Assembly (NCBI RefSeq): GCF_006345805.1
Contig: NC_043007.1
Span: 18,166,001 to 18,230,000, forward strand
Direction of reading: 5' to 3'
DNA from: Octopus sinensis
Taxonomy: Eukaryota
DNA length: 64,000 bases
The notes below the pieces were generated by a model. It saw nothing but the letters and a program-made list of their open reading frames with translations. It did not search any database and was not told the DNA's origin. This document shows, piece by piece, positions 3,958-64,000 of the stretch (positions are counted from its first letter, which is position 1; each line of letters opens with the position of its first letter). Both the position numbers and the translations under genes were made by a program.

Positions 3958-4135
3958 GTCCGTTTTCCATGCTCGCATGGGTTGGACAGTTCGACTGGGA
4001 TCTGGGAAGCCAGGAGGCTACACCAAGCTCCAGTCTGATCTGGCAGTGTCTCTACAGCTGGATGCCCTTTCTAATGCCAACCACTCCGTGAGTGTAGTGG
4101 GTGCTTTTTACGTGCCACCAGCATGGAAGTCAGTC
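3958..4135 (-). mobile_element. Family D retroposon 3' fragment
   Basis: Reverse complement of the family D 3' end, including one ggtggcacgtaaaaagcacc unit. Confidence 0.8.
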
Positions 4136-44164: not shown

Positions 44165-44571
44165 GCCAGTGCCACCCCGACTGGCCTCGTGCCAGTGGCA
44201 CGTAAAAAGCACCATCCGTTCATGGCCATTGCCAGCCTTACCTCGCCCCCGTGCCGGTGGCATGTAAAAAGCACCATCCGTTCGTGGCCGTTGCCAGCCT
44301 CGCCTGGCCCCCGTGCCGGTGGCACGTAAAAAGCACCATCCGATCATGGTCGTTTGCCAGACTCGTCTGGCACCTGTGCCGGTGGCATGTAAAAAGCACC
44401 CACTACACTCATGGAGTGGTTGGCGTTAGGAAGGGCATCCAGCTATAGAAACATTGCCAGATCAAACTGGGCCTGGTGCAGCCTTCTGGCTTCCCAGACC
44501 TCGGTCGAACCGTCCAACCCATGCTAGCATGGAAAGCGGATGCTAAACGATGATGATGATGATGATGATGA

Positions 44572-44575
<4 letters not shown>
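44165..44575 (+). mobile_element. Family D retroposon (probably RTE-derived 3' region) with 4 tandem ~60-bp modules and (GAT)n tail
   Basis: Modules gtgcNggtggcacgtaaaaagcacc + gccag..ctggc; common 3' end ggttggcgttaggaagggcatccagc...aaacgatgatg. Confidence 0.8.
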
Positions 44576-59735: not shown

Positions 59736-60105
59736 ATCATCATCATCATCATCATCGTTTAACGTCCGTTCTCCATGCTAGCATGGGTTGGACGGTTCGA
59801 CCGGGGTTCTGGGAAGCCAGAAGGCTGCACCAGGCTCCAGTCTTATCTGGCAATGTTTCTACAGCTGGATGCCCTTCCTAACGCCAACCACTCCATGAGT
59901 GTAGTGGGTGCTTTTTACGTGCCACCTGCACAGGTGCCAGGCGAGGCTGGCAACGGCCACGGTCAGATTGGTGTATTTTATGTGCCACCGGCACGGAAGC
60001 CAGTCGAGGCGGTGCTGGCATCGGCCACGAGTCGGATAGTGCTTTTTACGTACCACCAGACCAGGGATCCTGGCTGGTTCAATTCGATTTCGATTTCGAT
60101 TTCGA
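59736..60105 (-). mobile_element. Family D retroposon with 3 modules
   Basis: Reverse complement of the family D structure; (GAAATC)n at its 5' side. Confidence 0.82.
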
Positions 60106-60480
60106 TATATATATATATATATATACAGATGCACACACATACATACATACGCATGCACACACATATATACATACATACACATGCAAACACACACACACAT
60201 ACATACGTACATGTATAGGCACACACACACACACACTGACCCACACACATGCGCACAAACAAACAGAAGGGAACGCAGTGTAAATAATGGACAGAGTCAA
60301 AACTTTTGAAAAGGTTGCAAGATGCAAAGAAAATTTTAGGAAAATAAAAAGACAAAATAAGTGGAACTTTAACTGTTGAGTGTGTTAAATAATAAGGTAC
60401 TAAAAGAGAATTTTAGTACATTGGCACTTGATAGCTTGTCCTGGCTTGTCTCTGGATCATGTCAATAGGGTGCAAAGGAT

Positions 60481-60912
60481 CAGTGACACGTAAAAGCACC
60501 ATCCGTTTCGTGGCCGTTTGCCAGCTCTGTCTGGCCCCCGTGTCGGTGGCACGTAAAAGCACCATCCGTTCGTGTCTGTTGCCAGCCTCGCCTGGTCCCC
60601 GTGCCGGTGACACGTAAAAGCACTATCCGTTTCGTGGCCGTTTGCCAGCTCTGTCTGGCCCCCGTGTTGGTGGCACGTAAAAGCACCATCTGTTCGTGTC
60701 CGTTGCCAGCCTCACCTGGCCCCCGTGCCGGTGACACGTAAAAGCACCATCCATTCGTGGCCGTTGCCAGCCTCGCCTGGCCCCCATGCCGGTGACACGT
60801 AAAAGCACCATCCGTTCGTGGCCGTTTGCCAGCTCTGTCTGGCACCTGTGCGGGTGGCATGTAAAAAGCACCCACTACACTCACGGAGTGGTTGGCGTTA
60901 GGAAGGGCATCC
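60481..60912 (+). repeat. Family D tandem array, 7 modules of ~60 bp, 3'-truncated
   Basis: gtgRcacgtaaaagcacc recurs about every 61 bp. Confidence 0.9.
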
Positions 60913-61384: not shown

Positions 61385-62053
61385 TTAACCCTTTCGTTAC
61401 TGTATTTATTTTGAGATTCTCTGTGCTTCTTTCAATTACTTTAAATATAACAAAGGATTTAGTAAAATAACTTAGTTATCATTCAGCTAGTGTTAGGAAC
61501 ATAAATTGTGACTAAGGTTTGGTGGAAGATTTTAATTCAAAACTTATGAAAACAAGACATTTGTACTCAGAGCCAGAGCCAGTTTCAGCCGGGTTGGTAA
61601 CAAAAGGGTTAAAGTTATTCTCTGTGTATCCTAGCCATACATGTCCATATTAGTGCTGACATCATCTGCATATATTGGTCGATACCTTTAACTGTCCAGA
61701 GCAAAGGCTGTACCACGTGGACATATAATAACTTCTGTTGTAATGACCTAACAAAGGAGATTCCACATCATCACTCAGCCTGATAGAAATAGCAGTCTAA
61801 TCTCACTCAAATTGCAGTCTTCTGTTTAACCCTTTCGTTACTGTATTTCTGTTGAGATGTTCTGTGCTTCTTTCAATTACTTCAAATATAACAAAGAATT
61901 TAATAAAATAACTTAGTTATCATTCAGCTAGTGTTAGGAACATAAACTGTGACTAAGGTTTGGTGGAAGATTTTAATTCAAAACTTATGAAAACAAGACA
62001 TTTGTACCCAGAGCCACAGCCGGTTTCAGCCGGGTTGGTAATGAAAGGGTTAA
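61385..62053. mobile_element. Two family 1 piggyBac MITEs (61385-61612 and 61826-62053) in the same orientation
   Basis: Each has TTAA TSDs and ccctttcgttac TIRs; an extra TIR remnant lies at 62073-62088. Confidence 0.9.
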
Positions 62054-62618
62054 AAAAGAGGACTTAGATTATGTAATGAAAGGGTTAAATTCCTTTCATT
62101 TTACTTTATTTAGTTTATTTTGTTTTTTTACATTATCTTCTTCCTCCTCCTCCTACTCTCTCCTTATTTACCCTTATATATTTACTTGTTTATCTTCTTG
62201 GCTATTTTTGTACCCTATATTAGACACTATTTGTATATACCTGACTTTACCCTTAACGCCAATCCTTAACCTCCTCCTTCACTGTCTCTACTTCTCTTTC
62301 TATTTATTTATTTTTCTTTCTCTTTACCACATAATATCCACCCCCGCTACCATTTTGTGGTTGAATGTTGATGTTCATGTTTATTCTTGGGTATTTACAC
62401 TGTCAGAACTTTAACCTATAAAGATTTACGCAGAACTGCACCTAAGGACTTAACTTCTACACAATCAGAAAGTTGAATTTTAAAATTTTATGTTTCTTTC
62501 TTCTTCTCTTTCTTCATCTTATTTTTTTACTCCTTACCTCTATGTCATCATTTCATTAATCTATACCCTTCTTATTTTCTCTATTTGTCTCCGATGAGAC
62601 AAATAGAGAAAAAGCGCT

Positions 62619-62970
62619 ATCCGAATCGTGGCCGATGCCAGCGCCGCCTCGACTGGCTTCCGTGTCGGTGGCACGTAAAAAGCACCATCCGAATCATGGC
62701 CGAAACCAGTGCTGCCCCGACTGGCTTCCGTGCAGGTGGCATGTAAAATGCACCAATCCGACCGTGGCCGATGCCAGCCTCGCCTGGCTCCAGTGCAGGT
62801 GGCACGTAAAAAGCACCCACTACACTCACGGAGTGGTTGGCATTAGGAAGGGCATCCAGCTGTAGAAACATTGCCAGATAAGACCGGAGCCTGGTGCAGC
62901 CTTCTGGCTTCCCAGATCCCCGGCCGAACTGTCCAAACGGACGTTAAACGATGATGATGATGATGATGAT
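62619..62970 (+). mobile_element. Family D retroposon with 3 modules and (GAT)n tail
   Basis: As 44165-44575. Confidence 0.85.
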
Positions 62971-63101
62971 GGAATATCCCATACTCTGGGATATCCCAGA
63001 AACAGCTGTATGACTTTTAATGTTTTTTCTTTCCAATAATAACATGAGATGTTTACAACGTTTGTTGTCCTCTTCAACAATTGGCTGTGTGGTAAGTTAC
63101 A

Positions 63102-63497
63102 GGTGCAGGAGTGCTGTGTGGTAAGTAGCTTGCTTACCAACCACATGGTTCTGGGCTCAGTCCCACTGCGTAGCACCTTGGGCAAGTGTCTTCTACTATA
63201 GCCTCAGGCCAACTAAAGCCTTGTGAGTGGATTTGGTAGACAGAAACTCAAAGAAGCCCGTCGTATATATGTATATATATATATATGTATGTGTGTGTTT
63301 GTGTGTCTGTGTTTGTCCCCCAACATCACTTCACAACTGATGCTGGCATGTTTACATCCCCGTAACTTAACGGCTCGGCAAAAGAGACCGATAGAATAAG
63401 TACTAGGCTTCCAAAGAATAAATCCTGGGGTTGATTTGCTTGACTAAAGGCAGTGCTCCAGCATGGCTGCATTCATATGACTGAAATAAGTAAAAGA

Positions 63498-63500
<3 letters not shown>
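63102..63500 (+). mobile_element. SINE family A
   Basis: Full-length copy. Confidence 0.9.
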
Positions 63501-63549
<49 letters not shown>

Positions 63550-63551
<2 letters not shown>

Positions 63552-64000
63552 CACAAAACTCTACTTGTGAAGACCTGTTGAGGCAAGTGAGGATCAGAAT
63601 CGAAATCGATCAATGGAAATTGCAGATGTGTTACCAGTGCCGGTGGCATGTAAGAGAACCTTCCGTTTCGCGACTGTTGCCAGCGCCGCCCCGACTGGCC
63701 TCGTGCCGGTGGCACGTAAAAAGCACCATCCATTCGTGTCCGTTGCCTGGCCCTTGTGCCGGTGGCACATAAAAAGCACCATCCGTTCGTGGCCGTTTGC
63801 TAGCTCTGTCCGGCACCTGTGCGGGTGGCACGTAAAAAGCACCCACTACACTCACGGAGTGGTTGGCGTTAGGAAGGGCATCCAGCCGTAGAAACACTGC
63901 CTTATCTGACTGGGCCTGATGAAGCCTTCTGGCTTCACAGACCCCAGTAGAACCGTCCAACCCATGCTAGCATGGAAAACGGACGCTAAACGATGATGAT
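63550..64000 (+). mobile_element. Family D retroposon, longest copy (4 modules plus upstream segment)
   Basis: Upstream cttgtgaagacctgttgaggcaagtgag...gaatcgaaatcg segment, four modules, common 3' end and (GAT)n. Confidence 0.85.

What the first reader, a model, noticed from the sequence alone, without database searches (positions are those of the whole stretch)
60481..60912. Variable-length tandem arrays of a ~60-nt hairpin + H-type pseudoknot RNA module in a retroposon 3' region
Seen: five copies of family D (44165, 59736, 60481, 62619, 63550) carry 4, 3, 7, 3 and 4 tandem modules. Each has a constant block CGTGC-N-GGTG-GCACG-TAAAA(A)G-CACC and a second block GCCAG-(variable loop)-CTGGC. 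The constant block can fold as a compact H-type pseudoknot: S1 CGUGC/GCACG, 1-nt loop, S2 GGUG/CACC, A-rich loop 3. The single loop position N occurs as C, A, G and T across units while the stems mostly hold, although some units have a C-A mismatch. The GCCAG/CTGGC stem persists while its loop changes in length and sequence (cctcgc, ctctgt, actcgt, cgccgccccga). Established: A-rich loop-3 pseudoknots of this size occur in luteovirus frameshift elements and preQ1-I aptamers, and the pistol ribozyme starts with a similar CGUG..CACG-UAAA stem. I cannot see the rest of the pistol fold here. Inference: a multimerised structured-RNA device (RT docking, exonuclease block, protein-binding array or unknown catalytic RNA) amplified inside a mobile element.
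Basis: partly seen in the sequence, partly recalled or inferred. Interest (0 to 1): 0.72.

Follow-up and report, generated by a model that had tools for sequence, protein, structure and literature searches.

The report
Multiplied RNA knot in retrotransposon tail
The repeats lie in the tail of a very common jumping gene of what is likely an octopus; each holds a short core predicted to fold into a small RNA knot that was likely borrowed from the front end of a related element, likely multiplied by copying slips, and likely acts as a spare handle for the element's own protein rather than as an enzyme.

Summary
The arrays are real: 4, 3, 7, 3 and 4 modules. They lie in the 3' UTR of a single-ORF endonuclease/reverse-transcriptase LINE of RTE type; 114,949 cores match genome-wide. 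Across subfamilies both knot stems, the A-rich loop and the GCCAG/CTGGC stem hardly change while N, loops and linkers do, which favours a conserved pseudoknot over a plain hairpin. Covariation is absent, most stem variation is CpG decay, and 77 of 168 units keep all nine pairs. A close relative lacks the knots but has the same tail hairpin. The motif behind the knots is an RTE 5'-leader piece. Unit number runs from 1 to 32, and 10 of 80 last knots lost their 5' half, apparently repeatedly. Best reading: a captured leader knot, multiplied by slippage, likely a redundant protein-binding handle. Ribozyme, frameshift and riboswitch readings are unsupported. This scan noted the same arrays at least eight times on other DNA.

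The parts
60481..60872 (+). Tandem array of seven ~61-62-nt units (linker, GCCAG/CTGGC hairpin, 3-nt spacer, 25-26-nt knot core); member of a sub-lineage with 4-A loops and long arrays
60481..60500 (+). 5'-truncated first knot (5' arm of S1 missing)
60539..60809 (+). Five inner knots with the fifth S1 pair as U-G (60539, 60663) or C-A (60600, 60724, 60785); adjacent U-G and C-A types are predicted to pair perfectly with each other
60847..60872 (+). Last knot, N=G, 5-A loop, all nine pairs canonical
60873..60912 (+). Small hairpin and start of the second conserved motif (RTE 5'-leader type); this copy is cut here and lacks its tail
44165..44575 (+). 5'-truncated LINE copy: four knots (44188-44400), second motif (44418-44443), tail hairpin, (GAT)n
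59736..60109 (-). LINE 3' UTR copy, other subfamily: degenerate first knot plus two knots, second motif, tail
62609..62975 (+). LINE copy with three knots (62661-62817) and an 18-nt deletion that removes the tail hairpin
63550..64000 (+). LINE 3' UTR copy of the youngest sampled subfamily: degenerate first knot plus three knots (63636-63843), second motif (63861-63886), tail; relatives continue upstream into the ORF
63954..63985 (+). Terminal stem-loop shared with a knot-less relative; likely the core recognition signal for reverse transcription
   Evidence: z -2.35
4057..4125 (-).

Best explanation
The arrays are the 3' untranslated region of a very abundant RTE-type LINE retrotransposon, and each unit carries a 26-base core, predicted to fold as an H-type pseudoknot, that was likely captured from the 5' leader of an RTE-type element, likely multiplied by copying slippage, and likely serves as a redundant handle that helps the element's own protein load its RNA. 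Shown: position after the ORF stop and before the tail; conservation of stems and A-rich loop against free N, loops and linkers; variable copy number; the motif behind the knots is a 5'-leader motif in other animals; the tail hairpin is shared with a knot-less relative. Inferred: folding in vivo; capture through a bipartite (5' piece + tail) RTE derivative; slippage between homologous units by reverse transcriptase or DNA polymerase; protein binding. At least one knot, usually the last, is kept under selection in master elements; the extra copies are largely by-products.
For: ORF of 1054 codons with endonuclease and RT domains upstream; 23 of 30 loci join ORF end and array. Transversions per column: paired 0.007-0.013, L3 0.023, N 0.24, hairpin loop 0.21, spacer 0.15, linker 0.08 (122 units, 62 elements); in the flank-anchored set N 0.163 against 0.000-0.029 for the other 19 columns. 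A knot-like block precedes the terminal region in lineages 17-27% diverged, with different ORF ends and with units of about 26, 62-68 or 102 nt (52 of 73 old copies passed the knot filter). In old lineages the base after GGTG is often C (13 of 28), which moves a pair from S1 to S2 rather than losing it. [quoted passage not shown] By eye, RTE-4_EBu and its SINEs have a same-topology knot (1-nt L1, no L2, A-rich L3) with one two-sided change, one hairpin upstream of that motif. In long arrays the last knot keeps the C-G junction pair in 15 of 15, inner units in 12 of 192. Precedent: A-clade R2 proteins bind a 3' UTR pseudoknot-hinge-stem (PMC12180492, passages).
Against: No covariation: 53 double changes at the T-A pair of S2 with 24 complementary against about 21 expected, and 54 of the first 100 of 283 at a G-C pair against about 51 expected (hand counts); no better than shuffles. 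Knots are absent from a 56%-identical relative (L211) and from all 13 non-octopus stretches with the second motif, so they are not needed by RTE-type machinery in general. The hagfish knot differs in sequence and stem lengths; homology is not shown. [quoted passage not shown] Rough energies put the knot near its hairpin rivals, and neighbouring units are predicted to pair with each other instead. No binding or probing data.
Confidence: 0.5

Rival explanations
1. The module has no function in this element: it hitch-hiked with the captured 5'-leader piece and is an ordinary slippage-prone minisatellite homogenised within master elements.
For: No covariation; CpG decay dominates; 1-32 units; knot-less relative; 2,594 exact matches with the last knot's 5' half deleted against 12,391 intact (the shorter pattern is favoured).
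Against: Paired columns and L3 stay fixed while neighbouring unpaired columns change between subfamilies; a knot persists in old lineages with other ORF ends and unit lengths; last knot kept intact in long arrays.
Confidence: 0.2
2. The knot acts on the RNA's fate, not on the element's protein: it tethers the transcript to ribosomes or stabilises it against decay of a long 3' UTR.
For: Its neighbourhood is a 5'-leader block; bipartite SINEs keep such leader pieces although they encode nothing (PMC5786205 parts 2-3; PMC7245038 passages); A-rich L3 is conserved.
Against: No Rfam IRES, xrRNA or stability family; 5' ends of truncated copies scatter over the unit with no fixed stop just 5' of the knot (by eye).
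Confidence: 0.15
3. In the long-array sub-lineage, which includes 60481, the working fold is a two-unit helix: alternating U-G and C-A units pair in trans and replace the knot.
For: The fifth S1 position is Watson-Crick in 10% of 192 inner units in cis but 67-69% between neighbours (18 arrays; about 47% expected from the marginals, my arithmetic); minimum-energy folds show the 14-bp inter-unit helix.
Against: One ancestral dimer, so one event; arrays of almost pure C-A units exist (L276, 32 units); in the family at large N is free and G8 fixed, which fits the knot and not this helix; DNA hairpin-templated repair could give the same pattern.
Confidence: 0.07
4. The core derives from a Nin/Deu SINE central domain rather than from an RTE leader.
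For: [quoted passage not shown]
Against: The upstream half of the Nin domain is not found with the knots or in 1.79 Mb sampled; the adjoining motif is RTE 5'-leader sequence. The two origins need not exclude each other.
Confidence: 0.15
5. The module is a catalytic RNA, frameshift signal or riboswitch.
For: Size and loop geometry resemble luteoviral and preQ1-I knots and the first stem of pistol (recalled, no call).
Against: No Rfam match at E<=10; 152 nt behind the stop with no slippery heptamer by inspection; self-cleavage would part ORF from tail, yet 23 of 30 loci keep them joined and 5' ends are not fixed.
Confidence: 0.03

Closest known systems
RTE-clade LINEs and their bipartite (5' UTR piece + 3' tail) derivatives and SINEs (Kojima 2018, PMC5786205, parts 2-3 of 5 read; Kojima 2020, PMC7245038, passages and supplement passages)
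   Same: Single ORF with endonuclease and RT, short tandem-repeat tail; a 5'-leader motif joined directly to a 3' tail, as in SINE1-1_EBu, SINE2-1_EBu, SINE2-9/10_EBu; hagfish RTE-4 leader has the order knot-like fold, hairpin, same motif.
   Different: Here the bipartite block is the 3' UTR of the autonomous element itself and one part is tandemly amplified 1-32 times; the passages read mention no pseudoknot in these elements; core sequence differs from hagfish.
A-clade R2 3' UTR pseudoknot-hinge-stem (PMC12180492, passages)
   Same: Pseudoknot in the 3' UTR of a non-LTR retrotransposon upstream of a terminal stem; shown there to be bound by the element's protein and rescued by compensatory changes.
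   Different: R2 has one knot 6 nt from the 3' stem, gripped by N-terminal zinc fingers this protein lacks; here the last knot is about 110 nt from the tail stem, repeated, and absent in a close relative.
Nin-DC/Deu and Snail SINE central domains (PMC4758252, passages and supplement file 4 part 3; PMC4824008, passages)
   Same: Stem ending in GCACG, then a short A-rich loop and G..CC; conserved body module of retroposons.
   Different: Longer stem and loop, upstream half of the domain missing here, single copy in SINEs.
RTE-2_OV and other octopus RTE families (PMC9115989 and PMC13282606, passages)
   Same: RTE-type LINEs abundant and recently active in octopus.
   Different: RTE-2_OV has a C2H2 finger and a microsatellite 3' UTR; this family has a PHD-like insert in the RT region (below Pfam cut-off) and the module array; no passage seen describes the array.
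Compact H-type pseudoknots (luteoviral frameshift knots, preQ1-I, pistol first stem; recalled)
   Same: 5-bp S1, 1-nt L1, 4-bp S2, A-rich L3.
   Different: No ORF context, ligand pocket or catalytic core; no Rfam match.

Membership tests
RTE-clade LINE | Single ORF with AP endonuclease and reverse transcriptase | tested here: met
   1054-codon open frame in L032; Pfam RVT_1 1.6e-31, Exo_endo_phos above cut-off
RTE-clade LINE | Short tandem-repeat 3' tail and 5'-truncated copies | tested here: met
   (GAT)n tails and variable 5' ends
RTE-clade LINE | Placement in the RTE clade by RT phylogeny | not tested
   No reference RTs were on hand; the name rests on architecture, on the shared motif with named RTE elements and on recall
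RTE-clade LINE | Target-site duplications | tested here: inconclusive
   Window copies sit in (TA)n or are cut at the 3' end
Bipartite RTE derivative block | RTE 5' UTR sequence directly joined to an RTE 3' tail | tested here: met
   Second motif in 5' UTR of RTE-2_EBu, RTE-4_EBu and L288; joined to the same tail in L290, L296, L297, L300 and here; absent from three own 5' UTRs
H-type pseudoknot | Two crossing helices possible with compatible loops | tested here: met
   93.9% of cells paired against 14-63% when slid; 77 of 168 units complete
H-type pseudoknot | Paired positions conserved, unpaired N free | tested here: met
   hand count
H-type pseudoknot | Compensatory base changes | tested here: not met
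   low power, since inserted copies decay neutrally and master stems are nearly invariant
H-type pseudoknot | Fold shown by probing or structure | not testable with these tools
   needs DMS/SHAPE or NMR
Pistol or twister ribozyme | Match to the family model with catalytic core | tested here: not met
   No Rfam 15 hit at gathering or E<=10
preQ1-I riboswitch | Match to family model and ligand-binding loop | tested here: not met
-1 frameshift element | Inside an ORF, slippery heptamer 5-8 nt upstream | tested here: not met
   152 nt after the stop; no heptamer by inspection
xrRNA (exonuclease block) | Fixed 5' end just upstream of the fold; Xrn1 resistance | tested here: inconclusive
   5' ends scatter (by eye); resistance not testable here
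Nin-DC/Deu SINE domain | Whole conserved central domain behind a tRNA or 5S head | tested here: not met
   Only the 3' 18 letters resemble it; upstream hallmark not linked to knots; host is a LINE

The most novel reading that the evidence does not exclude
An old RTE leader pseudoknot, shared in topology with hagfish RTE leaders and perhaps with the Nin/Deu SINE domain, was moved behind the ORF and multimerised into an avidity array that captures the element's own protein in cis; reverse transcriptase skipping over it has left a genome-wide footprint (one last knot in eight deleted at the same place), making it a natural probe of RNA structure during retrotransposition.
Probability: 0.2. Interest if true: 0.62.

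Novelty: new variant of a known kind. Interest (0 to 1): 0.33.

Why it matters
If the knot binds the RTE protein, it would explain why RTE 5'-leader pieces are kept in non-coding SINEs, an open point in Kojima 2018, and give a defined template signal for a family with roughly 260,000 tails in this genome (extrapolated from 155 hits in 1.61 Mb). If it does not, this is an ordinary slippage array in a LINE 3' UTR. I found no paper describing it (searches), but Repbase/Dfam entries and most subscription papers were not searchable, and this scan has already reported the arrays at least eight times.

Tried and rejected
Rfam: window at gathering 0 hits; L003 UTR only microsatellite/miRNA noise; array 0 hits at E<=10; seven non-octopus loci no relevant family. 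Viral contigs: 0 hits for the core and for the second motif; 9 hits for a Nin-like pattern have no matching stem and were taken as chance. Metagenome relatives: 38 loci, six reach the ORF end; none shows knots, one (L211) shares the tail hairpin, the others have other tails. RNA evidence: runs X9, X12 (RNA is a guess) and X20 hold the 3' end as contigs only, which shows no strand, level or ends; X23 laid 27 reads: not used. RT-block/xrRNA test: automatic 5'-end mapping stopped falsely in linkers; a by-eye tally gave about 23 of 37 ends inside the knot, which covers 41-50% of an array: no clear excess. First tree of the deletion used faulty labels and was redone; that tree is weakly resolved (1 starred branch), so single origins per subfamily are not excluded. 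One S1 pair showed an excess of double changes (A-T 13, odds ratio 2.8, p 0.011 uncorrected); both changes are CpG transitions and copy age confounds it, so it is not counted as covariation. Supplement searches with no useful hit: (file 1 of PMC4824008 and of PMC4758252 could not be searched and may hold Deu/Nin alignments that bear on the origin). A larger sample of loci for 5'-end mapping could not be obtained, which leaves that test open.

Full report
Observation. The five arrays are present with 4, 3, 7, 3 and 4 modules, plus a one-module copy at 4057-4125 on the minus strand. A unit is a linker of about 17 nt, a GCCAG/CTGGC hairpin with a 6-11-nt loop, a 3-nt spacer and a 25-26-nt core. 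Twelve of 21 window cores, and 3 of 7 in the 60481 array, keep all nine proposed pairs (counted). The geometry arises in 0.4% of shuffles with Watson-Crick pairs only and 12.6% with G-U. No Rfam family matches.

Host element. The 63550 copy has thousands of candidates in G000. Of its 30 best loci all carry four cores and 23 continue upstream into an ORF end, 152 nt before the first core in 18 of them. L032 holds a 1054-codon frame with endonuclease, RT and a weak PHD match. The order is ORF, stop, leader, arrays, small hairpin, second motif, terminal stem-loop, (GAT)n. This is an RTE-type LINE by architecture; no RT tree was built. In 173 stretches of 10 kb plus the window there were 187 terminal hits; 155 hits in the 1.61 Mb away from the window extrapolate to about 260,000 (stretches were chosen by round coordinates, not strictly at random). 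A degenerate core pattern has 114,949 matches, the reversed control none. The animal is likely an octopus (inferred from the repeats and from earlier scan notes).

Is the fold selected? Inserted copies decay neutrally, so only changes between master lineages are informative. In 168 units picked by their flanks alone, variation sits at CpG sites; the G after N turns to A in 33 of 113 units with N=C but 3 of 55 otherwise. Transversions per column, weighted by element, are 0.007 in the hairpin stem, 0.008 in S1, 0.013 in S2 and 0.023 in the A-rich loop, against 0.24 at N, 0.21 in the hairpin loop, 0.15 in the spacer and 0.08 in the linker (122 units, 62 elements; columns are not independent). In the flank-anchored set N has 0.163 and the other 19 columns 0.000-0.029. 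A plain hairpin would pair N=C with G10 and leave GGT free; instead N is free (G 43, A 32, C 19, T 6 among the first 100 listed last modules, hand count) and GGTG and CACC are fixed. That favours the knot. Older lineages, 17-27% from their cluster consensus, keep a core directly before the terminal region (52 of 73 passed my knot filter), some without the GCCAG hairpin and with units of about 26 or 102 nt, some with one core about 45 nt after the stop. In 13 of 28 scorable old copies the base after GGTG is C, which shifts a pair from S1 to S2 (3,729 matches of the C/T form). PMC13282606 (passages) dates a distance of 0.2 to about 56 million years in O. vulgaris; that is only a guide here.

Covariation is absent. 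Window alignment: no better than shuffles. Genome-wide, both partners of the S2 T-A pair are changed in 53 cores, 24 of them complementary against about 21 expected from the marginals; for the neighbouring G-C pair 283 cores, 54 of the first 100 complementary against about 51 (hand counts). So no compensated sub-lineage exists at these two pairs. Only 77 of 168 units keep all nine pairs. Rough energies put the knot near its hairpin rivals, and in arrays neighbouring units are predicted to pair with each other.

Copy number and redundancy. Of 97 younger elements 13 show no chained core (mostly truncated), 81 show 1-4 and three show 5, 6 and 13. One sub-lineage with 4-A loops, which includes 60481, has 7-32 units in patterns that differ between loci, several with the ORF end upstream (loci chosen by likeness to the array). 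Its inner units have the fifth S1 pair as C-A (105) or U-G (64) of 192, while the last unit keeps C-G in 15 of 15. The two inner types complement each other in trans (67-69% Watson-Crick between neighbours), but this is one ancestral event. Ten of 80 last modules have lost S1a, N and S2a between two direct repeats; the label needs 10 changes on a weakly resolved tree, 9.7 when shuffled. Genome-wide there are 2,594 exact deleted against 12,391 intact matches, with many loop types among the deleted. Either reverse transcriptase skips the fold often or masters lacking the last knot were active; both mean slippage and redundancy. 5' ends of truncated copies show no fixed stop (by eye).

Origin. 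L211, a 56%-identical relative from a metagenome, ends in the same terminal stem-loop at its ORF end with no knots and no second motif. The second motif occurs in 13 stretches of apparently animal DNA inside MAG contigs: before an RTE-type ORF in L288, before the same tail in L290, L296, L297 and L300, and in tRNA-headed elements; none has the octopus core upstream. [quoted passage not shown] By eye, RTE-4_EBu starts with a knot of the same topology (4-bp S1, 1-nt L1, 7-bp S2, A-rich L3) that shows one two-sided change in its SINEs, one hairpin upstream of the motif; its sequence differs and homology is not shown. Three own 5' UTRs hold neither motif. The 3' UTR is thus best read as a captured bipartite block of the kind described in PMC5786205 (parts 2-3 read). 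[quoted passage not shown]

Mechanism. Most likely (0.5) the knot is an accessory, redundant handle for the element's own protein, as the single 3' UTR knot of A-clade R2 is (PMC12180492, passages), with the terminal stem-loop as the core signal; extra units come from slippage. Rivals: no function (0.2), RNA stability or ribosome tethering (0.15), a two-unit helix in long arrays (0.07), catalytic, frameshift or riboswitch RNA (0.03). Nothing here shows folding or binding. Resemblances to luteoviral knots, preQ1-I, pistol and twister are recalled, not tested beyond Rfam.

Novelty. Searches of the held library (listings, and passages of PMC9115989 and PMC13282606) found no description of the array; repeat databases were not searchable. 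The scan itself has reported it at least eight times in three or more genomes; those notes gave me the Nin and relocated-leader leads and are not independent support. Added here: genome-wide null for covariation, the recurrent deletion of the last knot, and the contrast between weakened inner and intact last knots. Verdict: real, probably structured, a new variant of a known kind; interest 0.33.

Noticed in passing
L032:2114-5275 minus (P0001 residues 794-837): PHD-like finger inserted in the RT region of the ORF (Pfam E 6e-4, below cut-off); an earlier scan note reports the same.
   Followed up: partly
window 62900-62950; L110 and L056 copies: Internal deletions in the terminal 152 nt (6 of 71 copies) include ones that remove the tail hairpin or the second motif between short repeats, again suggesting skipping of stems.
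   Followed up: partly
L006-L008 (G000:C1:39.71 Mb): Three near-identical element-plus-flank units repeated at 1.1-1.5 kb spacing: a local tandem duplication that carries the LINE end.
   Followed up: no
L005, L028, L029, L030: A recurrent duplication of about 90 nt of the 3' UTR leader ending inside the first knot.
   Followed up: no
L072, L145: Older lineages also amplified the last coding bases in tandem, and the leader of young copies contains a degenerate second copy of the ORF end.
   Followed up: no
L248:1900-2010 minus: Second motif preceded by a structured stretch that recalls a twister ribozyme; no Rfam hit at E<=5.
   Followed up: partly
L288-L300: Contigs filed in bacterial and archaeal MAGs contain animal-type retroposon DNA (RTE ORF, tRNA-headed SINEs), likely contamination.
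   Followed up: partly
L118:2733 minus, L108:1900 plus: Copies whose 5' end abuts an inverted piece of the same element, as in twin priming.
   Followed up: no
window 1908-63129 (12 matches): A second, more frequent tRNA-headed SINE-like family; one copy lies at 63100-63500 directly before the 63550 element.
   Followed up: no
window 61385-61610 and 61830-62055: Two copies of a roughly 220-nt element with inverted ends (MITE-like).
   Followed up: no
searches lists: Deleted last knots are rare in the N=G subfamily (about 3 of 100 listed) though it makes up about 38 of 100 intact ones; the lists cover different parts of C1.
   Followed up: partly
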